From the IMG/VR virus record IMGVR_UViG_3300023371_001771, positions 1 through 64,000 of that record: 64,000 nt of DNA; one strand, given 5' to 3'. This DNA comes from a virus (Duplodnaviria > Heunggongvirae > Uroviricota > Caudoviricetes). Positions 1-57,300 of this stretch are shown piece by piece; positions within the stretch are counted from its first letter, which is position 1; every line of letters begins with the position of its first letter. Position numbers and translations under genes: made by a program. The notes beneath the pieces were generated by a model. That model saw only the letters and a program-made list of their open reading frames with translations. It made no database searches and had not been told where the DNA came from.

Positions 1-466
1 ACCTTCGATATATACTTTACTTCCATATGGAATTACCGTTGGGTCCACCGCAATAGTGCGTCCAGCTGTTACTTGTGTGCCTGTTGCGGTAATACCATCA
101 CCTGTGCCGCAAATATGAGATCGTAGTTCGCAACAGTAGTGAGTCAGCTTAAACTCTCCAATATAAACTAATTCATATTCAATATATTTTAGCGCTAAAA
201 TCGTCTCATTTGCTTCGCCTAAGGATTTGGTCGCGGAGTCCAATTCGGCGGCTAATTTCTCTGATTTTGTATACTCTAACTGTAAGTTTTCGGTAACAGA
301 AGCGAGCTCTTCCTGTGTCGCTTGCAATAAAGTGCTCTGTTCGTTCAGCTTATTGGTCGTATCTGCCAGCTCACTTCTTGATGAAGCGCACCAAGCGAAC
401 ACAGAAAGTACAGCTACAGCTGCAGTAACTCCAATTATACTAAATATTGTGTCTTTAACCATCATG
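1..466 (-). CDS. 3D-domain (MltA/YocH-like) cell-wall-binding protein, partial (3' end beyond window start)
   Basis: Minus-strand ORF starting ATGATG at 466 with an N-terminal TM segment and coiled coil. Its C-terminal region (LTHYCCEL...GTGDGITATGTQVTAGRTIAVDPTVIPYGSKVYIEG) matches the 3D domain. It overlaps the desulfurase stop by 12 nt. Confidence 0.55.
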
Positions 467-1588
467 TCTAATCCTTTCAACCAATTTTGTTATAATGTCT
501 GCTGCGGTGTCAATTTCTTGCTCTGTGTTTTCGCGTCCAAGAGTAATACGAACGCTACTCAGTGCTTCTTTGTTTGACAAACCAATTGCCTTGAGCACAT
601 GAGATGGCGTTGGCTCATACGATTGGCATGCGGATCCTTTGCCGATATATAAATCATATAGCCCACACAGCGTTACCAATCTTTCAGCGTCAACTCCATC
701 AATAGTAAGATTAATGTTATTCGCAAGCCTGCTTGATCCAACTGAGACCCCATTTAAAGTTGTACCTGAAATTTGCAGTAGTTTGTTTAATAGTTTGTCA
801 CGCAAACTTGTAATGCGATCCTGTACGCCAAACATATTATGGTTGCGAGTAATACTTAGCGCCTCGCCCATTCCTGCAATAGCTGCTGTGTCATATGTTC
901 CTCCGCGCAGTTCATTTTCCTGTGATCCATAAATAATTGGTGTCAGTTCAATTCCATTTTTAACGTATAAAAATCCTGCACCACGAGGTCCACAAAACTT
1001 TTGAGCAGATACGGATACCATGTCAACACCAAGTTCTTTTACGTCAATACGCTGCTCTGGGTACAACTGAGTTGCGTCTGTGTGTAAAATGCAATTACAA
1101 TCATGCACAGTTTGCGCAATAGCTTTAAGATCTTGTATTGTGCCAATTTCTCCGTTTGCCGCACCGATAGATACTAGAGATTTATGAGCTGGAAACTTAG
1201 TGAGGCTGCGAGAGTATTTTAGAAATGTTGGTCGAAGTTTTACATAACCTTGCTCATCATTTTCTATAAACATTGCGCGTGGCATTTTATAAATAGATGC
1301 ATGTTCCATACGCGTAGTCCACCAACGAGCACCATTATGTGCTTTGAGATAGCCCTGAATTGCCATACTATTGGATTCGCATGCGCCGCTTGTGAAGATA
1401 ATTTCTGTTGGGTCTGCGTTAATATCTTCTGCAACTTGCACTCTCACACCTTCAATAATTTTCCTAGCGCTATCACCAATTGCATATGGACTTGACGGGT
1501 TGCCCCAACATGTTTTCATAACATGAGCCATAGTAGCAATAACTGACTCATATGGTTTTGTAGTCGCTGCATTGTCAAGATAAATCAA
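455..1588 (-). CDS. cysteine desulfurase, class V aminotransferase (IscS/NifS family)
   Basis: Carries YLDNAATT, SGACESN, HTDATQ and SAQKFCGPRGAGFLY (PLP-lysine region) motifs. A sigma70-like promoter and the conserved leader motif lie upstream. Confidence 0.85.
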   Translation of the reverse strand: MIYLDNAATTKPYESVIATMAHVMKTCWGNPSSPYAIGDSARKIIEGVRVQVAEDINADPTEIIFTSGACESNSMAIQGYLKAHNGARWWTTRMEHASIYKMPRAMFIENDEQGYVKLRPTFLKYSRSLTKFPAHKSLVSIGAANGEIGTIQDLKAIAQTVHDCNCILHTDATQLYPEQRIDVKELGVDMVSVSAQKFCGPRGAGFLYVKNGIELTPIIYGSQENELRGGTYDTAAIAGMGEALSITRNHNMFGVQDRITSLRDKLLNKLLQISGTTLNGVSVGSSRLANNINLTIDGVDAERLVTLCGLYDLYIGKGSACQSYEPTPSHVLKAIGLSNKEALSSVRITLGRENTEQEIDTAADIITKLVERIRHDG

Positions 1589-2825: not shown

Positions 2826-2899
2826 TGGAGCATCGTACCAGATTCGGACTGGCACTCCAACCTTGGAAGGGTTGTGTGCTACCATTACACCAACGATGC
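2826..2899 (-). tRNA. tRNA-Gly (anticodon UCC)
   Basis: Cloverleaf read on the minus strand: acceptor gcatcgt/acgatgc, anticodon arm caacc-cttccaa-ggttg, CCA encoded. Confidence 0.8.
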
Positions 2900-2960
2900 A
2901 TATTTGCATAAGCTCTAGTTTAAACACCTACACGACGTGAACATACTTATGCTGGTAGGC

Positions 2961-3096
2961 TTGTCCCTCTGGGACTCGAACCCAGACTATGCCTTGCTAG
3001 GGCCTACGGCTTATTGGTGACAGATTGTAGATTTGCACTACAATATCCTAAATGAATCTGCCAAGGCCGTGGCTCTCACCATTGAGCTAAGGGACA
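2961..3096 (-). tRNA. tRNA-like gene interrupted by a ~60-nt insertion in the anticodon region (possible intron; anticodon perhaps UGG/Pro)
   Basis: The 5' half (acceptor tgtccct, U8, D arm gctc-aatggtga-gagc, anticodon 5' stem acggc) lies at 3096-3066. The 3' half (gccgt, T arm ctggg-ttcgagt-cccag, acceptor agggaca) lies at about 3010-2961. They are separated by an insert containing a perfect hairpin, attgtag-tgcaaat-ctacaat. Confidence 0.5.
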
Positions 3097-3630
3097 TTAT
3101 AAAGCGGTTTTTCTTTCGGACATCTCCTATTGAGGTATGGATTACCGAAAACCACTAAGGTAGGCACATGTGCGTCACTTTCCTCAACAAGCTAAAACAC
3201 TTTAAAAGCCTTGGTGGGCAAGGTTGGTGCCGCCCCAACTACTCCCGAAGGAAACGGGTTTACAGCCCGTCGCGTTTGCTGATTCGCTACTTGCCCAAGG
3301 TGTCACGCCATTTTGAGACTAACGTGCTGTCTTGGCTTTTTGTTGTCGTTGTTTCACAGGTGCCATAACCAACGCCTTTCTCATGTTGCCACATATTAAG
3401 CCTGTGTTATTGAGAAATAGTAAGAGTCAATACCAGCTTGGTGCACGTGGAGGGCCACGATCCCTCAATCCCTTACGGGCACTGGTTTTTGAGACCAGCT
3501 TGTATGCCAATTCCAACACACGTGCGCATGCCCAACACTTGTCCATGCACCCACGAAAATTCGCACGTCAGCTGTTGGCACTGAACAGAAACCATTTGAG
3601 CTCAGAGGCCGTTTACTGTCATATTACCTC

Positions 3631-3660
3631 TCTGGTGCTGGATACCAGACTTGAACTGGT
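3631..3660 (-). ncRNA. tRNA-like 3' terminal element (T-arm plus acceptor plus CCA) without a recognisable 5' half
   Basis: The minus strand reads ccag-ttcaagt-ctgg tatccagc a cca. The only upstream acceptor partner is about 130 nt away. It sits inside the 1.3-kb ORF-free stretch. Confidence 0.25.
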
Positions 3661-4418
3661 ACGGTATATTTCAACCAGCGGATTTTTTGTGATAGGCATG
3701 AGTGATGACCTCACTACTGCTCTGGCAACCCACCAAGTCCGCTGTGTCTGCCGATTCCACCAATCCAGCATATCGGGCAGTTTTACATCTTGCCCAGGAT
3801 GCCGATTAAAACTTCGGACCATCCTCCAAGTTGGAATAAGCAAATACAATCATAAGCAATTTCCTCCTTTGGATTATTTACTGCTGCTAACTAGAACGTC
3901 GAAACATAACTCCAATTACGAATAAGGAGCGACCTTTGTCCAGCGGACGCTATGCCCGAAATCCTTACAACCTAACAGTGTGGGAGCGACCTCGGTTAAA
4001 ACTTTTTATTATATTGAGCTTGCTACTTACCAGCCACGGAGACAACCTATGGGCCTTGACCACCAACCCAAACTCTTTATCGTGGATTTGGTAAATCTTT
4101 TGTGGACTACGCATTCTTCTGCGATCTTAGCCCTCTTTACAACCTTAATAAACGACCTTTGATCAAATCAATCTTTGAAGTTTGAACGTTAAATTTTGAA
4201 CCTTGATCCTTAATCTTTACAGCAACACTTATAATATATATCATATATTTTAAATCTTTATCATGCCTAAAAGATTTACAGTATAAGATTCTTGCTTAAC
4301 GGGCAAGTCTTCTATTAATTGAAGATACTTTCTTTAACTTATTAATATCACTCTAAGTATCAAAAAGAAGAGATAAGCAGTCGTTTAAGGTTTCCGATAA
4401 GTAGCAAGCAAGTTTGCC

Positions 4419-5072
4419 TTAGTACTCGAACTCGATAACAGTTACAGCGTTGGAAACACTGAGAGCTGCATCAACTTCAGTTTCAAACTCATTAATCTCG
4501 TCCATGAGATTTTCCATAAGGTTAGTGACGCCAAGCGGGTCAATTAGGTCATAAGTATTGTTCGTAATGTAATCCTTGCGAAGAGCCTTCATTGCATCAC
4601 TATCGATAGCCATCTTAGAATCCTTAGGCTGAGCCTGGATTACAGACAGCACATACTGTTCAGCTCGCTTTTCAATGGCTTCGCCACTATTACGATCAAG
4701 CTCAACATATGCTGCGCGATAGTTGTCTACAATGCGCTGACGAAGAATCTTCTTGTATTCCATGCCGTGATTCTTCTCTTCGATAGCCTCAGCGACCGTC
4801 ATTTCCTTTTCGCCAACTACAACCTTGGTGGTTGCATTGGAAATCACAACAGCTCGCTTCATTGCGTCACGACGCGCAATTAGAGACTGAACCTTCTGGT
4901 AAGCACTCTTGATGTTTTCCTTGAACTCGGCCACGGTAACTCCGTTAACCTTTTCTGCTGAGTGCTTAACTGCCATCGCGTAAGGATGTGCGTTAATTGC
5001 CTTTAGGATGCGATCATCCATAGTCTTGAGTTCTGCAAGTGCCTTGTGAACCGTCATCTTTTCCTGAGTCAT
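4419..5072 (-). CDS. hypothetical protein
   Basis: ORF trimmed to the ATG (MTQEKM) preceded by AGGGGG. Sigma70-like promoter and leader motif lie upstream. Confidence 0.55.
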   Translation of the reverse strand: MTQEKMTVHKALAELKTMDDRILKAINAHPYAMAVKHSAEKVNGVTVAEFKENIKSAYQKVQSLIARRDAMKRAVVISNATTKVVVGEKEMTVAEAIEEKNHGMEYKKILRQRIVDNYRAAYVELDRNSGEAIEKRAEQYVLSVIQAQPKDSKMAIDSDAMKALRKDYITNNTYDLIDPLGVTNLMENLMDEINEFETEVDAALSVSNAVTVIEFEY

Positions 5073-5100
5073 TTTCTTGTACCCCCTAATAAGCTTTGAA

Positions 5101-5119
5101 TCATTAATTTTGTACTGTT
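5101..5119 (-). promoter_or_regulatory. conserved leader motif copy
   Basis: cagtacaaaattaatga on the minus strand, between promoter 5137-5165 and the RBS. Confidence 0.55.
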
Positions 5120-5136
5120 TCCCTTGAACTGGAATT

Positions 5137-5165
5137 AGTATATCACACATTCCATATTCTGTCAA
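5137..5165 (-). promoter_or_regulatory. sigma70-like promoter (TTGACA-N17-TATACT)
   Basis: Minus strand: ttgacagaatatggaatgtgtgatatact. Confidence 0.55.
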
Positions 5166-5189
5166 TAGAGTTTTTAAATCTTAACAAAA

Positions 5190-5266
5190 TGGCGTCCCAG
5201 GAGAGATTCGAACTCCCGACACACGGCTTAGAAGGCCGTTGCTCTATCCTACTGAGCTACTGGGAC
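5190..5266 (-). tRNA. tRNA-Arg (anticodon UCU)
   Basis: Acceptor gtcccag/ctgggac, anticodon arm acggc-cttctaa-gccgt, T loop ttcgaat, CCA encoded. Confidence 0.8.
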
Positions 5267-5515
5267 ATAATATGGTAGGGTATCTCCAACCTACCGCGAA
5301 CTACTAACAACATCACTTGCGTTTATTCTTTAGCAAGCATCCAATCAAGGCTGTGATGAACCCTGCTTGCCGCCGAAGACTAACTTGAATTATAAAGCCT
5401 AATAGTTTGTGGACTTGAACCACACAGCGCTCTTCCACTGGCCATCCTGCAACGTACCATATAACTTTTCGAGCAGTTTCTTCTCAACTGGTTTAACGTG
5501 CGAAGTCAGCACGGC

Positions 5516-5591
5516 TGGTGGAGATGATGGGACTCAAACCCACGACTTTTACCTTGCAAGGGTAACACTCTATCAACTGAGTTACATCCCC
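5516..5591 (-). tRNA. tRNA-Ala (anticodon UGC)
   Basis: Acceptor ggggatg with the G3:U70 Ala identity pair, anticodon arm ttacc-cttgcaa-ggtaa, CCA encoded. Confidence 0.85.
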
Positions 5592-6007
5592 ATAAAATGT
5601 GTATACCAGTTTTGATTGGGACGAAGACTGGAAACTTCTTTTCTCTCGACTCGCTCCGTAGAGTCGGCTTAACCGACGTACTATTCTGTCTCGCATACAC
5701 TTTCTGAGACTTGTGAAGAGAGCATTCACAATAGCGACCTAAGCCTTTTTGCCGTTAGAAAGCATTATCTTGTCGCCTGGATAGGTGGACTTTTGGAACG
5801 TGCACCACCATACACTCCGTCCTATATCTAACTGGACATTTCGCTTTTCTTTCAGATAAAAATCTTAGCTGCTTTGTGGTTTTGCGATAACCCATAGTGT
5901 TCTCCATCAAGTACCGCATGGCAGCACGGGATTGACTTCACAGAACGAGCCTAATCTCAAGTATTAGGCAAAACACGTGTATGATATTCTAAGTGTCATA
6001 CCCGCTG

Positions 6008-6098
6008 TGGCGGAGATGGTGAGCTTTGAACTCACGCGCCAATTTCTTGACCTAATCGGTTAGCAACCGATCCCCTTCAACCGCTTGGGTACATCTCC
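6008..6098 (-). tRNA. tRNA-Ser (anticodon GCU), class II
   Basis: Long variable arm, anticodon arm atcgg-ttgctaa-ccgat, acceptor ggagatg/catctcc, CCA encoded. Confidence 0.8.
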
Positions 6099-6101
6099 AT
6101 G

Positions 6102-6192
6102 TGGCGACTGGTTTCGGACTTGAACCGAAACACCCTTTCGGGTTACTGGCAGATTTCGAATCTGCTGCCTTACCAATTAGGCTTAACCAGCC
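6102..6192 (-). tRNA. tRNA-Ser (anticodon CGA), class II
   Basis: Long variable arm, anticodon arm gcaga-ttcgaaa-tctgc, T arm ttcgg-ttcaagt-ccgaa, CCA encoded. Confidence 0.75.
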
Positions 6193-6202
6193 GCATGATT
6201 GA

Positions 6203-6325
6203 TTACTTCTGCTCCAGCTGTCTAATCTGACGCTTTAGCTTATTAATGATGTTTGCGTTGCCAACAGGATCTCTCTGCTGTAGAAGGTTAATACGTGCCT
6301 GAAGTCGTTCAACAGTCTTAGTCAT
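6203..6325 (-). CDS. small hypothetical protein (40 aa) inside the tRNA cluster
   Basis: ATG preceded by aatGGAGGtataaaatc, and a variant leader motif (ttaattaataatggagg) lies upstream. Predicted coiled-coil peptide MTKTVERLQARINLLQQRD... Confidence 0.35.
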   Translation of the reverse strand: MTKTVERLQARINLLQQRDPVGNANIINKLKRQIRQLEQK

Positions 6326-6434
6326 GATTTTATACCTCCATTATTAATTAAATATGGTAGCAGTGTTTTTAGTCCATATTAAACTAGGCACCCACCTCTG
6401 TGGATCCCGCCAGGATTGAACTGACATCTCTGCT

Positions 6435-6510
6435 TGGAGCCGAGTATCGGACTTGAACCGATAGCCTGCTGATTACAAATCAGCTGCTCTGCCAATTGAG
6501 CTAACTCGGC
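6435..6510 (-). tRNA. tRNA-Thr (anticodon UGU)
   Basis: Acceptor gccgagt/actcggc, anticodon arm gctga-tttgtaa-tcagc, CCA encoded. Confidence 0.8.
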
Positions 6511-6811
6511 ATAAAATAGTCTAAGACTCTTCCGTCCTGTCAAGGATAGGTCATCGCTTGTTTCTAGCCAAACCAAGAATCAATTAACTCGAAAACGCTT
6601 TTACATTCTTAGACTATATGGCTGGGAACCAGGGTAACGCTCCCCGTCTTCATGGGTCAAAGCCATGCGTACCAACTTTTATACGAGTTCCCATCATTGA
6701 CCCAACTTTCTGCTCCTTGTATGCTTGCATCAGAGGCCAGGACGCTCTCTCCGTATTGGGTCGGAGTACGTATATTTCACTACTCACGTGTCTGTTCGCG
6801 AAACAGCATGT

Positions 6812-6886
6812 TGGCGGTCACGGTGTGACTCGAACACACAACCTAGCGGTTAACAGCCGCTTGCTCCACCATTGAGCTACGTGACC
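6812..6886 (-). tRNA. tRNA-Asn (anticodon GUU)
   Basis: Acceptor ggtcacg/cgtgacc, anticodon arm agcgg-ctgttaa-ccgct, CCA encoded. Confidence 0.8.
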
Positions 6887-7057
6887 ATATGGTGTCTCTA
6901 CAGGCGGGGCCAGTGCAGCGACCCTATATGAGGGCTTTCCACGAACTACTTTTGCAACATTTTGTATGTCTGTTAATCTTACTGCCGTCAGCTAATTGGC
7001 AGTCGTTGCTATCCTTGTTCCGTACTAACACCTATACATTGCACTACCTGTAGAGAG

Positions 7058-7133
7058 TGGTGGGTGATTGGAGAATCGAACTCCAGACGCCATGATTAAA
7101 AGTCATGTGCTCTACCAACTGAGCTAATCACCC
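7058..7133 (-). tRNA. tRNA-Lys (anticodon UUU)
   Basis: Acceptor gggtgat/atcaccc, anticodon arm catga-cttttaa-tcatg, CCA encoded. Confidence 0.8.
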
Positions 7134-14327: not shown

Positions 14328-15242
14328 TTACACAAAATCCTTAAAGCGATGTGCTAAATTATCTACGTAGCTATCTGACTGAAATCCATACTTTTCAGCT
14401 AACTGCCTACCATCTTCAGATCTTAAAAAGCTTTTAAGCTCAAGCCCTGTTTCTTGCATGCCTTGAACTAAATAATGGTACATGCCGCTGATGTGTATGT
14501 TTTTCATTGTTAGGCTGGGGATACCAACTAGATCTCTGAAGTTTTGCAGTTTTCTATACACCCATCTAAAATTGCGGTCATCAGAATCTGCGGCATGTGC
14601 ATTATCTCTTTCCTTGTATAGTCTGCCAACTCCAATGAGTTTTTTAACTCTCAAGGATTCTCCATAACACATATATTCAACTTCATCGAACGCTTTTGTC
14701 AAAAGTTCATACAGTCTATCTGTCAATTGAACCACTCTTCCGTCAGAGAAATATAATGATTTCTCCCTTGAATTGACCATAGATCTATCAATCTTCACCA
14801 AGTCATTCATACTTGGTCCAGAAATGCCCTCCCATAAGCACTCTAAGATTGCCTTGTCAGTCCAATTGTATAACTGACCCTCGATTTCAGTTATTTCTTC
14901 TCTACTTAAGAATTTCATGCTATCAGGTGGAACGCATGGCTTTAATAAATCTATTGTAATACTATTATATGAGTCCGTTGTTTTATCTTTATGATAATAC
15001 TTTCTCCATGCGCAATATGCTTTTAGAATTACGTTGTAATTCATAAGCACATAAACCGATTTTGCCTTAAATTCTTTATACATTTCTAAAGATTCTGCGT
15101 TATTGAACTGACTGCAATCTTTATTATTTTTTTCTTCAAAAGGTTCTGTTTTTCTGAATAGACTATATAAAGACGTTCTGGCTACCACCCTTGACCTTAA
15201 ATAATCGTTTATAAAACCTTCTTTCATGTCAGATTGATACAT
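14328..15242 (-). CDS. hypothetical protein
   Basis: ORF trimmed to ATG (MYQSDMKEG) downstream of the sigma70-like promoter at 15267-15295. Confidence 0.5.
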   Translation of the reverse strand: MYQSDMKEGFINDYLRSRVVARTSLYSLFRKTEPFEEKNNKDCSQFNNAESLEMYKEFKAKSVYVLMNYNVILKAYCAWRKYYHKDKTTDSYNSITIDLLKPCVPPDSMKFLSREEITEIEGQLYNWTDKAILECLWEGISGPSMNDLVKIDRSMVNSREKSLYFSDGRVVQLTDRLYELLTKAFDEVEYMCYGESLRVKKLIGVGRLYKERDNAHAADSDDRNFRWVYRKLQNFRDLVGIPSLTMKNIHISGMYHYLVQGMQETGLELKSFLRSEDGRQLAEKYGFQSDSYVDNLAHRFKDFV

Positions 15243-15266
15243 TGATATTGCCACCCCTTTGTGGAT

Positions 15267-15295
15267 TATTATATATGACGAACATGTGTTTGTCA
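15267..15295 (-). promoter_or_regulatory. sigma70-like promoter (TTGACA-N17-TATAAT), motif-like AACAATTACAAA immediately upstream of the -35
   Basis: Minus strand: caacaattacaaattgacaaacacatgttcgtcatataataat. Confidence 0.5.
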
Positions 15296-15316
15296 ATTTG
15301 TAATTGTTGGAATATT

Positions 15317-16291
15317 TTAAATCATACCATCCAAAATATTCGCTGCCTTTTTCTGCTTTTCCTTGGACAGTTCAGCATATCTTTGCGTGGTTGATACATT
15401 TTTATGATGCAGCTGTTTAGCGCACAAATAAATATCACCAGTCGCTTCGTACAAGTTAGTCGCGCAAGAATGTCGCATTACGTGAGGCGTAACATGCTTA
15501 TCGGTTGCCCCTTTTGCATATTTGTCCATCATGTCCTTGACTGTTCTTACGTCCAGTCTTGTGTTTCGCTGAGTGACAAACAATGCATCATTGTCCGCAG
15601 CATTAAAATACAGTTCACGATCTTTAAGCCACAATTTGATTTGTGTTTTAAGATTATCGCCGATTACTACGCAAGCGTCATGATCACCCTTTTCTGTAAT
15701 ATAGATTTGATTATGCTCCAAATCCAAATCGCTAATATCGATTTGTACAATAGCAGAAATTCGTAGACCAGTTGCAAACCCAAGTTTCAAAAGACACAAA
15801 TCTCTATTTATTAGCTTTTCGTTTGCTGTCTGTTCTACATTTTTCAGAATTTTTGCGATTTCTTCTGAGGTCAAAAAAGTTACATTAGGATTGTCTTTCA
15901 TCTTCGGTCTTGATGTATTGCTTACTGGATTTGTGTCAATATAATCAGGCACCAAAAACTGAAAAAACGAGTTAAGCGCGGACCAATTCGTTGTCTTATA
16001 GCTATCGGATGTCCTTTCGGTTTTTCCATTAGTTGATTTAGTTCTCAAAGAAGAAATGTACCTGTTAATATGGCTAGTATTTACATCAAGATAGAATTCT
16101 TCTGGACATTTCACCTTAAATGTAAATTTAATAAATCGAATTACACTTGAAATGTATTCTTTTGCCGTTCTATATGATTTGCCTGCACCAATTAGACTGT
16201 ACCAGTAATCAGTCAAAATAGACGGCATACCTTGTATATTTTTCATAACATTTTGTTCAATCTGCATTTCATTTTCAAATCTACCACTCAA
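15317..16291 (-). CDS. tyrosine recombinase/integrase (XerC/D-phage integrase family)
   Basis: C-terminal catalytic motifs HVMRHSCAT ... LHHKNVSTTQRYAE (R, H-x-x-R, Y). The start is uncertain: a TTG after AAGGAGG at 16291, or an upstream ATG at 16342. Confidence 0.8.
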   Translation of the reverse strand: MSGRFENEMQIEQNVMKNIQGMPSILTDYWYSLIGAGKSYRTAKEYISSVIRFIKFTFKVKCPEEFYLDVNTSHINRYISSLRTKSTNGKTERTSDSYKTTNWSALNSFFQFLVPDYIDTNPVSNTSRPKMKDNPNVTFLTSEEIAKILKNVEQTANEKLINRDLCLLKLGFATGLRISAIVQIDISDLDLEHNQIYITEKGDHDACVVIGDNLKTQIKLWLKDRELYFNAADNDALFVTQRNTRLDVRTVKDMMDKYAKGATDKHVTPHVMRHSCATNLYEATGDIYLCAKQLHHKNVSTTQRYAELSKEKQKKAANILDGMI

Positions 16292-16697
16292 CGTAACGGC
16301 CTCCTTTTTCGATCTTCTTCTTTCTCCAGCTGAAAAAAACATATGAAATCAAACACCACAGTATAATATTTCCTTTGAAAATCGTCGCGACAATCATAAG
16401 GAAAATATACCATACCCACCCAATGGTGAGTCCGTCAATCATTGAATCTGGCAACACTTTTTCTTCTGGAAAATGTACATTACTATTTGTTTTACTTGTT
16501 ATTTTAATAAAACAGTTATCAAAATGTTCCTGATACGCATGATACCTTGCGTGGCCAAGTTTATACACATACACTTCACGTTTCGTATCATAACAAATAA
16601 ACGTAGCTTCCGTTTCTTCAAGGCCATCTTTAACAATAAATACTGTACCAGTATAATATTTTTGCCCATCAACAACAAAATAATTTTGAAACCTCAT
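16281..16697 (-). CDS. hypothetical membrane protein
   Basis: ORF trimmed to ATG after GGAGG. C-terminal TM helices. Confidence 0.45.
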   Translation of the reverse strand: MRFQNYFVVDGQKYYTGTVFIVKDGLEETEATFICYDTKREVYVYKLGHARYHAYQEHFDNCFIKITSKTNSNVHFPEEKVLPDSMIDGLTIGWVWYIFLMIVATIFKGNIILWCLISYVFFSWRKKKIEKGGRYVEW

Positions 16698-25712: not shown

Positions 25713-26972
25713 TCACATGCTTCTCACCAAAGTGTCATAAACTGCTCTGTTTGTGAGGATTGCATTCTGCATGCAGCGGATTGACAGATAACCGTCAATT
25801 TCCTTGTCGGTTTTATTTCTGTTCGCCGCTACATTTTTGCCCGTCCCTCTTAAGATGGTGTAATCTTCTTTATCACTTACACTACCAAGACCTCCAATCT
25901 TTTTCTTATTTGTTGCACAGGCTCTAATGCAATCCATTACGAACTGATTCAAAATGTCAATATCTTTTTGTACATTAATGATGGGAAGCACTGAAGTTGC
26001 CCACGAATACTTGCCATCTCCTTTATACAAATAAGATTGAACTTGATTGAGCGCTCGCTTCATGGAAATATTGCGCTGCTTGATTGTCCGAGATTCAATC
26101 TCTTTTTGAAAACTCTTTACGCGAGACTTGGCAAGTGTAATTTGATTTCCTTTGATATAGAAACCAAGGAACTTAAACCACCTGTCTTTCGTAAGAATCT
26201 CAACTTTCTTTGGATTCAATTCGAGTTCCATTTCATCAAGCATTCTCTTAATGGCTGCGTATGCTTGCTCCCACTCATTTCCTAGTGCCAACAAATCATC
26301 TGAATATCTAACATAGTAAACATTCATATCACTTATTGCCTTGTCAATGGGATACAACACTGCATCAGCCAAGAAGCTTGCCACAGCGCAACCTTGTTTC
26401 AAAGACTGATAATGTTCAATCAGTTCTCCATTGAAGTCAAAGCACAAATCTGCATGATAGTATTTCCTTACAACATCAATGATCTTTGACTTACCAACTT
26501 TCGATTCCATTCTGTCAAAGATGTCATCAATGTATCTGATAGGAACCCTATCAAAATACTTGGTCAGGTCTGCTTTCAGTCCAACCTCGCGAGTCTTTGT
26601 ATTAATCACCTGCCTTGATACTTCCTGTACAATCTTGCCGCAACCAATGCCGCTTTGGTATGATTTGCAACTCTTATGAACGAACTCAGGAAACATCTCA
26701 AAGAACAAATTGTTTGCAATGGATAAGAAGATTCGGTCTACATTTTCATTAACGTAAACAATTCTCATATCTCCATTGTCTTTAGGAATCTGTGCTTGGT
26801 GCGGCGGAGCGATTTCGTAATTATCAGTGATAATTGCATTGTACAGCGCAAGTCTAACTTCTGGAGATGTAAGTTTTCTTAATTCTCCCTTGTCGATGTG
26901 CTTGTCGACACCAACTTCAAGTGCCTGCTCCCAGCGTTCAGTTTCAAAAAACTTCTTCAACAAAATGTCCAA
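25713..26972 (-). CDS. reverse transcriptase (prokaryotic RT, unclassified lineage)
   Basis: RT motifs IPKDNGDMRIV (1), LKADLTKYFDRVP (3), QGCAVASFLADAVL (4), YVRYSDDLLAL (5, YxDD), LNPKK (6), FKFLGFYI (7). No maturase X domain and no obvious VTG motif. Confidence 0.8.
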   Translation of the reverse strand: MDILLKKFFETERWEQALEVGVDKHIDKGELRKLTSPEVRLALYNAIITDNYEIAPPHQAQIPKDNGDMRIVYVNENVDRIFLSIANNLFFEMFPEFVHKSCKSYQSGIGCGKIVQEVSRQVINTKTREVGLKADLTKYFDRVPIRYIDDIFDRMESKVGKSKIIDVVRKYYHADLCFDFNGELIEHYQSLKQGCAVASFLADAVLYPIDKAISDMNVYYVRYSDDLLALGNEWEQAYAAIKRMLDEMELELNPKKVEILTKDRWFKFLGFYIKGNQITLAKSRVKSFQKEIESRTIKQRNISMKRALNQVQSYLYKGDGKYSWATSVLPIINVQKDIDILNQFVMDCIRACATNKKKIGGLGSVSDKEDYTILRGTGKNVAANRNKTDKEIDGYLSIRCMQNAILTNRAVYDTLVRSM

Positions 26973-27585: not shown

Positions 27586-28529
27586 TTACACAGCAATCTT
27601 TTTATTTACCATGTTGTTAAACTGGTCAAAGATTGCATGTCCATCCATGATTTTGCTCCAGCGGTTTTCTTGATACGTTGCGGTGTTGCGTCGAGGTGCT
27701 GCGTGGGTAATAACATCACTCATTGCGTTAACTGCCTTCCATGCGCTGTCTTCAAACTTTGCAATATCTGGCATGTTGTATGCAGTCCAGTAGTTATTCT
27801 TAAACTGCTGTACATTGTTCTTTTTCTTCTGGCTTGCATCTTCCTTTACAGGGAACATTTCATCAAGAATCTGCTCAATCTGTTCACGATAAAGCTTTGC
27901 GTTTGCAAGTCGGTCTGCCTCTTCATCAAGATTTACCATATAATCGTTAGCCAACTGCAAACACAATTTCGCTTCTTCAAGCTTAGACTGCATATCGCCA
28001 ACGTGCTTAGTGCTCCACTGACGCTTTGCACCATTAAGTGCCATACTTAAAGTGTTCTGACAAACCACTCGAATAGGAGTCATGGCAATTCTGATTGCGC
28101 CTGTGCCATCATGAGAATTTGTAAACACCATAAAAGGATCTACATCATCATCAAGCACCTTCTTTGTAGGCATCTTTGCGAGCAGCCAAATTCTCTTGCC
28201 TCCTGCGAGAGAGCCTGCGGTTTCATAGGTTACAACTCCGTCTTCCGTTTCACCAACAATTTCATCAGTAAACTCAAACGCTTCAACGTCTGTACAATCT
28301 TATAGCGGTCGCTTACAATACCAAGAATCGTGCCATCAGTGTCACGTCTGTTTGCCTTATATCCAGGAATCTCAATGCCAGAATCAGTGAACACAGGAGT
28401 CTGTTCTACGCGCCAATCAAGTCCAGCAAAATGCAATGCGTCTTCGCTCGTCGGTGCCTTTTCAACATTCACACCCAGTCCATGCCACGGTACCTGTCTT
28501 ACATAAAACATAGATTCAACATTATGCAT
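27586..28529 (-). pseudogene. frame-split gene (two ORFs, 28529-28230 and 28173-27586) encoding one ~320-aa protein if a -1 frame change occurs near 28190-28225
   Basis: The upstream ORF ends ...GIVSDRYKIVQ. The -1 frame continues without a stop as DVEAFEFTDEIVGETEDGVVTYETAGSLAGGKRIWLLAK-MPTKK.... No canonical slippery heptamer is seen. Confidence 0.45.
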
Positions 28530-29112
28530 TTTCCTTTTCTCCTTTTTCTTTATAGTAATTACTTACAGTTTCTTTCCACGATTTACCAGACAAAATGCCA
28601 TTTACCAACCCTCTGCTTAGACCGAGCATCTTGGCAATTTTCCTACATCCAAAGCCTGTATCATCTCTTATCTTCAAGATTGTACATACTATATCGCTTG
28701 TGATTATTGCATTATAGTGCTGCTCTTCTCTTGGTGCATATGTTGCTACATCCGCTGGATGTCTTAGCCCATTATCAAGCGCATGCTGATTGTTTTCAGA
28801 TGGCGTCACATATTCAAGATTTTCAATTTTATTGTTATGCTTATTACCATCTTTATGATTAACAACATATCCTTCTGGACACTTGCCAAGAAATGCTTCT
28901 GCAACCGCTCTATGCACACGAATATTTATCACTTGATATTTCTGTGGCCTTGCTTGTAATGTCATATATCCATTTTTATTTTCGAATTGCTTTAATGTAC
29001 GCTTAGTGATTGCATTTCTGAATCTTCCGAAGTTGCTTGCTTCGTACATATTGTTCAGTGACGGAATTGGTTTCCATATTTCATTGCATAGATTTTCATC
29101 ATTAGCTGCCAT
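28522..29112 (-). CDS. HNH homing endonuclease (NUMOD4 N-terminus, HNH_3 core, C-terminal HTH)
   Basis: EIWKPIPSLNNMYEASNFGRFRN (NUMOD4-like), VNHKDGNKHNNKIENLEYVTPSEN (HNH) and IAKMLGLSRGLVNGI (HTH). Confidence 0.8.
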   Translation of the reverse strand: MAANDENLCNEIWKPIPSLNNMYEASNFGRFRNAITKRTLKQFENKNGYMTLQARPQKYQVINIRVHRAVAEAFLGKCPEGYVVNHKDGNKHNNKIENLEYVTPSENNQHALDNGLRHPADVATYAPREEQHYNAIITSDIVCTILKIRDDTGFGCRKIAKMLGLSRGLVNGILSGKSWKETVSNYYKEKGEKENA

Positions 29113-57207: not shown

Positions 57208-57300
57208 TTGGGCTGGTGTATTGTACACCCTGGTCCACCTAGCGACGGGGAATTTCCCCGTCATTTTTAATATACAAAGAATAAAGGAGAACAAATAATT

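What the first reader, a model, noticed from the sequence alone, without database searches (positions are those of the whole stretch)
2961..3096. tRNA gene interrupted by a ~60-nt insertion carrying a perfect hairpin
A canonical 5' half (acceptor, U8, D arm, 5' anticodon stem acggc) at 3096-3066 matches a canonical 3' half (gccgt, T arm ctggg-ttcgagt-cccag, acceptor agggaca pairing perfectly with tgtccct) at about 3010-2961. Between them lies an insert containing attgtag-tgcaaat-ctacaat. Depending on the exact junction, the anticodon loop reads cttgg.. (possibly UGG/Pro). Bacterial and phage tRNA introns are usually group I introns of 200 nt or more. A ~60-nt insert is unusual and could be a mini-intron, a processed spacer or a degenerate gene.
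Basis: seen in the sequence. Interest (0 to 1): 0.55.

Follow-up and report, generated by a model that had tools for sequence, protein, structure and literature searches.

The report
tRNA-shaped intron inside a phage tRNA
A phage tRNA gene is split in its anticodon loop by a 48-base insert that is itself a miniature tRNA, one of a family of "tRNA-within-tRNA" genes that hints at an undescribed way of splicing tRNAs in bacteria.

Summary
Window 2961-3096 (minus strand) is a tRNA gene (Rfam 48.6 bits) with an insert in its anticodon loop. The Pro reading does not hold. The insert is 48 nt (3062-3015), lies between U34 and A35, and removing it gives the loop CUUAUAA, a tRNA(UAU) with a 20-nt variable region like the annotated tRNA-Ile of T5-like Vibrio phages.

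The insert mimics a tRNA: a 7-bp acceptor-like helix, a 5-bp/7-nt T-arm-like hairpin stacked on it, and an ACCA tail. The window holds a second case, Leu(UAA) at 3633-3769. Related phages hold 20 distinct nested inserts of 47-93 nt, including a genuine tRNA-Asn inside a tRNA-Lys. One rule, cutting from helix base 1 to N-C-C/A-A, restores a canonical 7-nt loop in every case.

Both junctions fall at tRNA end-maturation sites. I therefore infer excision by RNase P and a 3'-end nuclease, then rejoining by the phage's RNA ligase and polynucleotide kinase, encoded 4-6.5 kb beyond the window's left edge and present in 21/21 loci with nested tRNAs. No step has been shown experimentally. Only the Lak megaphage paper (2019) reports comparable "enigmatic" introns.

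The parts
2961..3096 (-). Whole interrupted tRNA gene. After excision it is an 88-nt tRNA with anticodon UAU (Ile-type). It has discriminator A and no encoded CCA.
   Evidence: Rfam tRNA 48.6 bits. ARAGORN intron mode. ARAGORN calls the spliced construct tRNA-Ile(tat). The spliced homologues fold to a consensus cloverleaf with 14 of 21 pairs showing compensatory changes.
3063..3096 (-). 5' exon: acceptor 5' strand, U8 A9, D arm, anticodon stem 5' strand ACGGC, and loop bases C32 U33 U34.
   Evidence: Sequence. The CUU flank is conserved in all UAU-type homologues.
3015..3062 (-). 48-nt insert, a tRNA minihelix mimic. Acceptor-like helix GGCAGAU (3062-3056) / AUCUGUC (3025-3019). 13-nt linker (3055-3043). 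T-arm-like hairpin UGUAG-UGCAAAU-CUACA (3042-3026). Tail ACCA (3018-3015).
   Evidence: A descriptor scan finds it together with the 11 ordinary tRNAs; shuffled sequence gives 3.3 hits per window. 108 of 108 helix cells are paired across 9 inserts. The minimum-energy fold of the isolated insert gives this structure. The centroid fold in context gives the same.
2961..3014 (-). 3' exon: loop bases A35 U36 A37 A38, anticodon stem GCCGU, 20-nt variable region (3005-2986), T arm, acceptor 3' strand and A73.
   Evidence: Sequence. The variable region is shared with L004, L006 and the uninterrupted L013. A comparable 21-nt variable region occurs in the Vibrio phage tRNA-Ile(UAU).
3633..3769 (-). Second interrupted tRNA of the same kind, tRNA-Leu(UAA). 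It carries a 48-nt minihelix insert at 3734-3687 (GGUGGGU...GCCUAUC ACAA), also between U34 and A35.
   Evidence: ARAGORN intron mode. Descriptor scan. Excision gives CUUAAAA, the loop of the intron-less alleles in L005 and L007.

Best explanation
The gene encodes a phage tRNA with anticodon UAU (Ile-type, AUA-decoding) whose anticodon loop is interrupted between U34 and A35 by a 48-nt intron shaped like the top half of a tRNA. The intron has a 7-bp acceptor-like helix, a coaxially stacked 5-bp/7-nt T-arm-like hairpin, and an ACCA tail. Its first base occupies the position where RNase P cuts a tRNA, and its last base occupies the position where a CCA-ending tRNA ends. Proposed pathway: RNase P cleaves 5' of the intron, leaving ...CUU-3'OH. 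A tRNA 3'-end nuclease cleaves after ACCA. The two exon halves stay held together by the acceptor and anticodon stems. The phage's own RNA ligase seals them, with its polynucleotide kinase/phosphoesterases healing the ends if needed, to give an 88-nt tRNA and a free 48-nt mini-tRNA. Shown in silico: the anatomy, the family, the junction rule, the covariation and the presence of the ligase cassette. Inferred: every enzymatic step.
For: (1) Junction rule. Cutting from base 1 of the 7-bp helix to the end of N-C-(C/A)-A restores a canonical 7-nt loop and a tRNA recognised by ARAGORN for 20 distinct inserts in 31 loci. In these cases only a 4-nt tail restores the canonical 7-nt loop; tails of 1 or 3 nt give only '???' calls, and 2-nt tails give off-register calls that I set aside as artefacts. 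(2) In L002, L003, L105-107, L109 and L015 the insert is a bona fide tRNA-Asn(GUU) ending GCCA, nested in a perfect tRNA-Lys(UUU). That inner tRNA must itself be matured at exactly these two sites. (3) There is a size series from a real tRNA (74 nt), through cloverleaf-like mimics (66-93 nt), to minihelices (47-50 nt). All keep the acceptor helix, the T stem with a G-C closing pair (9/9) and the tail, which to my knowledge are the minimal RNase P/3'-processing determinants. (4) 108/108 helix cells are paired, and 11 of 12 pairs show double changes. Partner shuffles give 67.8 +/- 3.8 (max 81 in 2000) and slid registers give 33-51. G-U pairs indicate selection at the RNA level. (5) The exons are under tRNA constraint. 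Interrupted and uninterrupted tRNA(UAU), Leu(UAA) and Lys(UUU) genes mostly replace one another in the same slot of sister phages, though L128 carries both forms of tRNA(UAU). (6) All 11 uninterrupted tRNAs and the interrupted tRNA-Leu in the window encode CCA, matching the intron tail. In Lak phages the four introns I parsed carry no CCA, and those of Thr, Phe and (with an ambiguous A) Gly end right after the discriminator. (7) The window's own contig encodes an RNA ligase (phrog_968, 2.7e-65), a Pnk-HD kinase (PDB Pnkp1, 4.6e-11) and a metallophosphoesterase just beyond the window's left edge, the ligase 4.1-5.5 kb and the kinase 5.6-6.5 kb from it. An RNA-ligase profile hits 21/21 loci with nested tRNAs against 9/59 without.
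Against: There are no RNA data, so excision and ligation are untested. To my knowledge no endonuclease that cuts exactly after CCA is known in Firmicutes; there RNase Z is inhibited by CCA, and exonucleolytic trimming would destroy the 3' exon. Precedents exist only in Thermotoga and E. coli RNase Z/BN (from memory). Three of the 20 tails are NCAA, not NCCA. The T loops of many mimics are non-canonical (GUCAUCA, GGCAGNA). Ligase/Pnk cassettes are common in tRNA-rich phages as tRNA repair systems, and the association is phylogenetically confounded: among loci with at least 5 tRNAs it is 21/21 versus 8/12, p = 0.012. Lak introns have an extra 26-31-nt 5' leader, so RNase P alone cannot define their 5' splice site. 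The helix segments were picked with the descriptor, so 100% pairing is partly by construction.
Confidence: 0.55

Rival explanations
1. Processed but not re-joined. RNase P and 3' processing release the inner mini-tRNA. The outer tRNA is only a carrier or scaffold, and its halves serve as decoys or tRNA-half RNAs, or are discarded. The functional product is the inner RNA.
For: The inner element can be a real tRNA-Asn. tRNA scaffolds stabilise embedded RNAs. No ligation has been shown. The excised mimic keeps a tRNA-like 3' end.
Against: The loop flanks always restore a canonical 7-nt loop with U33 and a purine at position 37. The exon stems show compensatory changes. Interrupted genes occupy the slot of uninterrupted tRNAs with the same anticodon and are usually the only copy in the held locus. 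The minimal 47-50-nt inserts have lost everything except the processing determinants, which is hard to reconcile with the inner RNA being the product.
Confidence: 0.2
2. A dedicated, unidentified phage or host endonuclease recognises the minihelix and cuts both junctions. This would be a protein-only splicing endonuclease analogous to, but unrelated to, the archaeal BHB enzyme. Ligation follows by the phage ligase/Pnk.
For: The Pnk-HD kinase and the metallophosphoesterase would be needed only if cleavage leaves 5'-OH and cyclic-phosphate ends, which RNase P and RNase Z do not. Many window ORFs have no assigned family. The NCAA tails and odd T loops fit tRNA enzymes imperfectly.
Against: A real tRNA-Asn as intron already guarantees cleavage by the ordinary tRNA-maturation enzymes. 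No candidate nuclease is linked to the locus.
Confidence: 0.15
3. A dead gene. A selfish tRNA-derived DNA element (or a MITE-like repeat) inserted into the tRNA gene and inactivated it.
For: The helix ends resemble terminal inverted repeats. Presence and absence vary between sister phages, with a diverged patch around the insert. An HNH homing endonuclease and a reverse transcriptase are encoded in the window.
Against: There is no target-site duplication. G-U pairs in the helices mean pairing is selected in RNA on this strand only. The exons are intact and covarying across diverged phages. Twenty different inserts all obey the loop-restoring rule.
Confidence: 0.07
4. A conventional intron: tRNA-Pro(UGG) with an intron at the canonical 37/38 site removed by a BHB endonuclease, or a self-splicing or self-cleaving RNA.
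For: ARAGORN's default call is Pro(tgg) with a 48-nt intron after position 36.
Against: The putative G35 and G36 covary with the 3' helix strand. The 5' junction sits at the base of a 7-bp helix and the 3' junction 4 nt past it, so there is no bulge-helix-bulge. No Rfam family other than tRNA matches the insert even at E <= 10. At 48 nt and ending in A, it cannot be a group I intron.
Confidence: 0.03

Closest known systems
"Enigmatic" tRNA introns of Lak megaphages (Devoto et al. 2019, PMC6784885)
   Same: They are introns in the anticodon loops of phage tRNAs. The authors noted that one (Thr) "itself may encode a tRNA". From their Table S6, all four introns I parsed (Tyr, Phe, Gly, Thr) carry an acceptor/T-arm module at the intron's 3' end, and those of Thr, Phe and (with an ambiguous A) Gly end right after its discriminator.
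   Different: Lak introns are 79-114 nt and sit next to position 37. They have a 26-31-nt 5' leader with a small hairpin before the tRNA-like module, and they lack CCA. Here both ends of the insert coincide with the ends of the mimic, the tail is NCCA, the site is mostly 34/35, and the mimic can shrink to 47 nt. No mechanism or rule was proposed for Lak.
tRNA-like structures released from longer RNAs by RNase P and RNase Z (MALAT1 mascRNA, the mitochondrial tRNA punctuation model, the Arabidopsis GUT15 intronic tRNA-like RNA)
   Same: A tRNA-shaped module marks the cleavage sites for the tRNA end-maturation enzymes (established knowledge; GUT15 is PMC6152437, listed).
   Different: In those cases the flanking RNAs are not re-joined, and none sits inside another tRNA's anticodon loop.
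Phage T4 Pnkp/Rnl1 tRNA repair of anticodon-loop breaks
   Same: It uses a phage-encoded kinase/phosphatase plus an ATP-dependent RNA ligase that seals a nick in a tRNA anticodon loop. The window's contig encodes an RNA ligase (DraRnl-like N-terminal OB domain), a Pnk-HD kinase and a metallophosphoesterase.
   Different: In T4 the break is made by a host defence nuclease. Here it would be programmed by the gene's own structure. The ligase belongs to a different family from Rnl1.
Bacterial group I introns in tRNA anticodon loops (e.g. cyanobacterial tRNA-Leu(UAA))
   Same: The location is the same, and for Leu(UAA) the site is the same (U34/A35).
   Different: Group I introns are about 200 nt or more, self-splicing, and end in G. 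These inserts are 47-93 nt, end in A, and have no group I core.
Archaeal/eukaryal BHB introns and split or permuted tRNAs
   Same: Both use protein-dependent excision plus ligase, and introns occur at varied positions in the loop.
   Different: There is no bulge-helix-bulge here. The recognised structure is the intron's own tRNA shape.
tRNA-Ile(UAU) with a long variable region in T5-like Vibrio phages (e.g. Achelous MK796244, 76428-76520)
   Same: The spliced product aligns over 97% of its length. It has a UAU anticodon and a 20-21-nt variable region forming a hairpin with a 7-nt loop.
   Different: Those genes are uninterrupted, and identity is only 72%.

Membership tests
tRNA (Rfam RF00005) | Cloverleaf scoring above the gathering threshold | tested here: met
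   48.6 bits against a threshold of 29, full model 1-71, with the insert treated as a loop insertion.
tRNA-Ile(UAU)-type phage tRNA with long variable region | Anticodon loop YUUAUAM after excision, a variable region of about 20 nt, and homology to annotated tRNA-Ile | tested here: met
   The loop is CUUAUAA. The uninterrupted relative L013 has the same variable region and loop. The spliced form aligns with Vibrio phage tRNA-Ile over 97% of its length. Charging with isoleucine was not tested.
   Positions '35-36' are GG, GA, GA and GG in homologues and covary with the opposite helix strand. Position 37 would be A.
tRNA-like minihelix (RNase P / 3'-processing substrate) | 7-bp acceptor helix stacked on a 5-bp T stem with a 7-nt loop, a G53-C61 closing pair, and a single-stranded NCCA tail | tested here: met
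   All are present at 3062-3015. The closing pair is G-C in 9 of 9 inserts. The tail is NCCA in 17 of 20 and NCAA in 3 of 20.
tRNA-like minihelix (RNase P / 3'-processing substrate) | Actual cleavage by RNase P at -1/+1 and by a nuclease after position 76 | not testable with these tools
   Requires enzymology or RNA end-mapping.
Group I intron | P1-P9 catalytic core, about 200 nt or more, terminal G | tested here: not met
   The insert is 48 nt and ends in A. No Rfam match at E <= 10.
BHB (archaeal/eukaryal) tRNA intron | Two 3-nt bulges carrying the splice sites, separated by a 4-bp helix | tested here: not met
   The 5' junction is at the base of a 7-bp helix and the 3' junction is 4 nt beyond its other strand; the two are not staggered by 4 bp.
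Known self-cleaving ribozymes (hammerhead, twister, pistol, hatchet, etc.) | Match to the family covariance model | tested here: not met
   No such Rfam hit in 2900-3230 at E <= 10.
Lak-type phage tRNA intron | Intron in a phage tRNA anticodon loop with a tRNA-like module abutting the 3' splice site | tested here: met
   Compared by eye with Table S6 sequences.
Lak-type phage tRNA intron | 26-31-nt 5' leader hairpin before the tRNA-like module, and insertion next to position 37 | tested here: not met
   There is no leader; the insert starts at helix base 1. The site is 34/35.
MITE / IS-type DNA insertion | Terminal inverted repeats with a target-site duplication and multiple near-identical copies | tested here: not met
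   The flanks CTT and ATAA are not a duplication. The two inserts in the window share little sequence by eye (not computed). The helices contain G-U pairs.
ATP-dependent RNA ligase + polynucleotide kinase RNA-repair cassette | Ligase nucleotidyltransferase domain and P-loop polynucleotide kinase encoded by the same phage | tested here: met
   L021 15643-17076: phrog_968 RNA ligase 2.7e-65, Pfam RNA_ligase 26.3 bits (cutoff 27), TIGR02306 1e-11. L021 17218-18090: AAA_33 + HD, PDB 4xrp Pnkp1 4.6e-11. Homologues in sister phages pass the Pfam cutoffs. Activity on these tRNA halves was not tested.

The most novel reading that the evidence does not exclude
A previously undescribed tRNA splicing pathway in bacteria and phages in which the intron is itself a tRNA or a minimal tRNA mimic. 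The universal tRNA end-maturation enzymes (RNase P and a 3' nuclease) act as the splicing endonucleases, and a phage RNA-repair ligase acts as the splicing ligase. One transcript of a nested gene pair (e.g. tRNA-Asn inside tRNA-Lys) would yield two functional tRNAs, and the ligase step would make the outer tRNA's supply depend on phage gene expression.
Probability: 0.4. Interest if true: 0.92.

Novelty: new variant of a known kind. Interest (0 to 1): 0.8.

Why it matters
As far as I know, bacterial tRNA introns have been thought to be self-splicing group I introns, with protein-dependent tRNA splicing confined to archaea and eukaryotes. These genes suggest a third route that reuses RNase P, a 3' nuclease and an RNA-repair ligase, with the intron's tRNA shape as the only signal. 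That would give phage Pnk/ligase cassettes a routine role beyond countering anticodon nucleases. It would explain the "enigmatic" Lak introns. It shows that tRNA finders without intron mode miss, and with intron mode mislabel, a class of phage tRNAs: here Ile, Leu, Gln and Lys genes were called Pro, Ser, Thr or Arg, or not called at all. It also offers a natural design for nesting RNAs inside tRNAs. The hypothesis is directly testable with a 136-nt transcript and three purified enzymes.

Tried and rejected
- An exact-pattern search of IMG/VR for the 5' half found nothing.
- BLAST of the region against cultured phages found only tRNA-Leu similarity.
- The Rfam permissive scan found no ribozyme or intron family in the insert, and no group II intron RNA near the reverse transcriptase.
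- ARAGORN's Pro, Ser, Thr and Arg calls for interrupted genes were rejected on covariation and on uninterrupted homologues.
- Shifted junctions (+1 giving UGU/Thr, +2 giving UGG/Pro) also leave 7-nt loops. They were rejected because L013 and the Vibrio phage relatives have UAU, because the Leu insert at the 32/33 site and the Gln 93-nt insert allow only the rule-based junction, and because the window already has a Thr(UGU) gene.
- A MAFFT alignment of the inserts mis-aligned the Leu and Ile types, so covariation was counted on structure-defined segments instead.
- The idea that the 20-nt variable region belongs to the insert was rejected, because uninterrupted L013 and the Vibrio tRNA-Ile have it too.
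- The idea that inserts arose by ligation of mature tRNAs into cleaved loops followed by reverse transcription stays open. It is weakened by the Lak introns, which lack CCA and in most cases end at the discriminator.
- A PDB sequence search for the ligase found nothing.
- The portal protein look-up found no record.
- No RNA ligase lies inside the window itself.

Full report
**Observation**

On the minus strand, window 3096-2961 reads: TGTCCCT TA GCTC AATGGTGA GAGC C ACGGC CTT [GGCAGAT TCATTTAGGATAT TGTAG TGCAAAT CTACA ATCTGTC ACCA] ATAA GCCGT AGGCCCTAGCAAGGCATAGT CTGGG TTCGAGT CCCAG AGGGACA A.
- The Rfam tRNA model covers the whole stretch at 48.6 bits (gathering score 29), with a large insertion in the anticodon loop and a second one in the variable region.
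- ARAGORN without intron mode reports 11 tRNAs in the cluster at 2826-7133 and misses this gene. With intron mode it reports a tRNA with a 48-nt intron.
- The window is part of ENA contig ERZ27248446 k141_738774 (171,516 bp; 0 mismatches over 11,588 nt). The same array is present in three other assemblies.

**Context**

- The window is an uncultured phage. It encodes a terminase, a portal protein, a DnaB-like helicase, a Sak4-like protein and integrases.
- It has relatives of about 130-180 kb in IMG/VR.
- Fragments are binned with Acutalibacteraceae/Clostridia MAGs, which is the only host clue.
- There is no close cultured relative.

**Junction and anticodon**

- Homologues of the gene in L004, L006/L007 and L017 keep CUU before the insert and AUAA after it. 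The next seven bases differ and covary with seven bases near the insert's 3' end: GGCAGAU/AUCUGUC, GAUGGAU/AUCCAUC, GAGUGGA/UCCGCUC and GGUGUGA/UCACAUC. Those bases belong to a helix, not to an anticodon, so ARAGORN's calls of Pro, Thr and Ser for these homologues are artefacts of intron placement.
- An uninterrupted relative with the same unusual variable region and T arm (L013) has the loop CTTATAA.
- The spliced sequence aligns over 97% of its length with an annotated 93-nt tRNA-Ile of T5-like Vibrio phages. That tRNA has the loop UUUAUAC and a 21-nt variable region.
- In sister phages an intron-less tRNA(UAU) occupies the same slot, with the same downstream flank and the same distance to tRNA-Arg(UCU). 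Sister genomes mostly carry either the interrupted or the uninterrupted version, not both; L128 carries both.
- The mature product is therefore a tRNA(UAU). The amino acid was not tested. The long variable region leaves mischarging possible, as reported for the nematode V-arm tRNA-Ile(UAU) (PMC4300185).
- AUA accounts for 14% of Ile codons in the window's ORFs.

**What the insert is**

- It consists of a 7-bp helix, a 13-nt linker, a 5-bp stem with a 7-nt loop placed directly against the helix's 3' strand, and the tail ACCA. This is the acceptor/T-arm half of a tRNA with discriminator and CCA.
- A descriptor for this anatomy finds 18 sites in the window: the 11 ordinary tRNAs, five background sites, and exactly two others. 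Thirty dinucleotide shuffles give a mean of 3.3 sites. The two others are this insert (3015-3062) and a second one (3687-3734) inside a tRNA-Leu(UAA) at 3633-3769.
- Larger inserts in relatives fold as cloverleaves with D and T arms and end in NCCA. These are 93 nt in a Gln-type tRNA, 71 nt in Leu and 75 nt in Ile.
- Across nine distinct inserts, all 108 helix cells are paired and 11 of 12 pairs show double changes. The T-stem closing pair is always G-C. Shuffling partners gives 67.8 +/- 3.8 paired cells (maximum 81 in 2000 shuffles), and sliding the register gives 33-51. The segments were chosen with the descriptor, so part of this perfection is by construction.
- G-U pairs show that the pairing is selected in RNA on this strand.

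**Survey**

- I fetched 80 more phage loci around the neighbouring cysteine desulfurase gene.
- I cut out every helix/hairpin element with tails of 1-4 nt and passed the joined flanks to ARAGORN.
- For the true cases only a 4-nt tail restores the canonical 7-nt loop. Tails of 1 or 3 nt give only '???' calls. Two-nucleotide tails give 28 named but off-register calls, which I set aside as artefacts. The 4-nt tail gives 20 distinct nested inserts in 31 loci.
- The outer tRNAs are Ile(UAU), Leu(UAA), Gln(UUG), Lys(UUU) and Thr(UGU). All have U34.
- Junctions are mostly CUU^ (34/35), but also 32/33, 35/36 and 36/37.
- Tails are NCCA in 17 and NCAA in 3.
- All hits are on the tRNA-coding strand.
- In L002, L003, L105-107 and L109, and at a different loop position in L015, the insert is a canonical tRNA-Asn(GUU) ending GCCA, nested in a perfect tRNA-Lys(UUU). 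L005 has a different, uninterrupted tRNA-Lys(UUU) in the same slot.

**Mechanism (inferred)**

- The 5' junction is where RNase P would cut the mimic. The 3' junction is where a CCA-ending tRNA ends.
- All 11 uninterrupted tRNAs of the window, and the interrupted tRNA-Leu, encode CCA.
- The Lak megaphage introns I parsed (PMC6784885) carry no CCA. Those of Thr, Phe and (with an ambiguous A) Gly end right after the discriminator of their tRNA-like module. In both systems the 3' splice site therefore follows the local 3'-processing site.
- A real tRNA-Asn as intron must be matured at exactly these sites.
- The minimal inserts have kept only what a minihelix substrate needs.
- RNase P and an RNase Z-type cut leave a 3'-OH and a 5'-phosphate, the ends an ATP-dependent RNA ligase seals (established enzymology, from memory).
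- Beyond the window's left edge the contig encodes an RNA ligase 4.1-5.5 kb away (phrog_968 2.7e-65; Pfam RNA_ligase 26.3 bits; TIGR02306 DraRnl-like 1e-11). It also encodes a Pnk-HD kinase 5.6-6.5 kb away (PDB Pnkp1 4.6e-11) and a metallophosphoesterase.
- Sister phages have ligases that pass the Pfam cut-offs next to a Pnk gene, two of the four checked also with a weak match to an RlaP-family nucleotidyltransferase (one of them above Pfam's cutoff).
- A ligase profile hits 21/21 loci with nested tRNAs and 9/59 without. Among loci with at least 5 tRNAs the figures are 21/21 and 8/12 (p = 0.012). This comparison is not corrected for relatedness.

**Weak points**

- There are no RNA data.
- The 3' nuclease is unidentified. 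A cut exactly after CCA is known to me only for Thermotoga and E. coli RNase Z/BN.
- Some tails are NCAA and some T loops are atypical.
- Ligase cassettes are common in tRNA-rich phages anyway.
- The Lak introns' 5' leader does not fit a pure RNase P model.

**Rivals**

- The halves may not be re-joined.
- An unknown dedicated endonuclease may do the cutting.
- The gene may be dead.
- It may be a conventional BHB, group I or ribozyme intron. This last rival is contradicted by structure, size and Rfam.
- Intron-plus and intron-minus alleles differ in a patch running from the anticodon stem to the T stem. This suggests cassette exchange or co-conversion at the DNA level, but the way the inserts spread is unknown.

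**Novelty**

Seven full-text searches found no description of tRNA-shaped introns or nested tRNAs in phages beyond the Lak report, which called its introns enigmatic and proposed no mechanism. I rate the finding a new variant of a known kind. If the pathway is confirmed it would be a new class of intron.

Noticed in passing
window 3633-3769 (-), insert 3687-3734: A second interrupted tRNA, Leu(UAA), with a 48-nt minihelix insert ending ACAA. It is missed by ARAGORN without intron mode and by Rfam at the gathering threshold.
   Followed up: yes
L002 1138-1211 (also L003, L105-107, L109); L015 13474-13548: A canonical tRNA-Asn(GUU) nested inside the anticodon loop of a canonical tRNA-Lys(UUU). 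The loop position differs between the two phage groups (CUU^UUAA versus CUUUU^AA).
   Followed up: yes
window 3100-3211 (-) and 5837-5946 (-): drum RNA (RF02958). The 5837-5946 copy scores 68.6 bits. A weaker copy (33.3 bits, below the gathering score of 43) exactly fills the spacer between tRNA-Tyr and the interrupted tRNA. Its function is unknown, and it is apparently co-transcribed with the tRNA array.
   Followed up: partly
window 2986-3005 (-): A 20-nt variable region on a tRNA with a class-I-type D arm and a UAU anticodon. It can form a 5-bp stem with one G·A mismatch closing a 7-nt loop. The feature is shared with the tRNA-Ile of T5-like Vibrio phages. Whether such tRNAs are charged with Ile is open (compare the nematode V-arm tRNA-Ile(UAU), which is mischarged with Leu).
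   Followed up: partly
window 2961 and downstream: The interrupted tRNA(UAU) is the only one of the 13 tRNAs in the cluster without an encoded CCA. After A73 comes GCCT and then ACCA. Its homologues in L004 and L006 do encode ACCA.
   Followed up: no
window 25713-26972 (-): A reverse transcriptase (Pfam RVT_1 8e-21; closest to the group II intron RT model at 1.6e-30 but far below its cutoff). Rfam finds no group II intron RNA. Its role is unknown.
   Followed up: partly
just beyond the window's left edge: ligase 4.1-5.5 kb, Pnk-HD 5.6-6.5 kb, metallophosphoesterase 6.9-7.6 kb, RecJ-like DHH protein 7.6-9.2 kb (L021 15643-20826): An RNA-repair-type cassette: an RNA ligase with an N-terminal OB domain, a Pnk-HD kinase, a metallophosphoesterase and a RecJ-like DHH protein.
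   Followed up: yes
window 455-1588 (-): An IscS/NifS-like cysteine desulfurase directly downstream of the tRNA cluster. It is conserved next to tRNA clusters in many phages and may supply sulfur for tRNA thiolation.
   Followed up: no
window 57209-57259 (+): DUF3800-XI RNA motif (RF02975), 46.1 bits, above its gathering score.
   Followed up: no
window 4323-4408 (-): A weak RAGATH-27 match (41.7 bits, gathering score 76.1) inside the tRNA cluster.
   Followed up: no
L004 3182-3310; L014 4925-5035: Other odd tRNAs in relatives. One is an Asn(GUU)-like tRNA with an insert of about 53 nt between the D arm and the anticodon arm. The other is a tRNA with the loop CUCUAAA (anticodon CUA, amber-suppressor-like) that also carries an insert after the D arm.
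   Followed up: no
L001 357-430 (also L002-L005): A conserved free-standing 74-nt tRNA-like element (acceptor helix with one mismatch, T arm UUUGG-UUUGACU-CCAAA, ACCA tail) that ARAGORN does not call as a tRNA.
   Followed up: no
window 14328-16342 (-) and 28522-29112 (-): Two adjacent tyrosine recombinase genes, which suggest a temperate lifestyle, and an HNH/NUMOD4 homing-type endonuclease.
   Followed up: no
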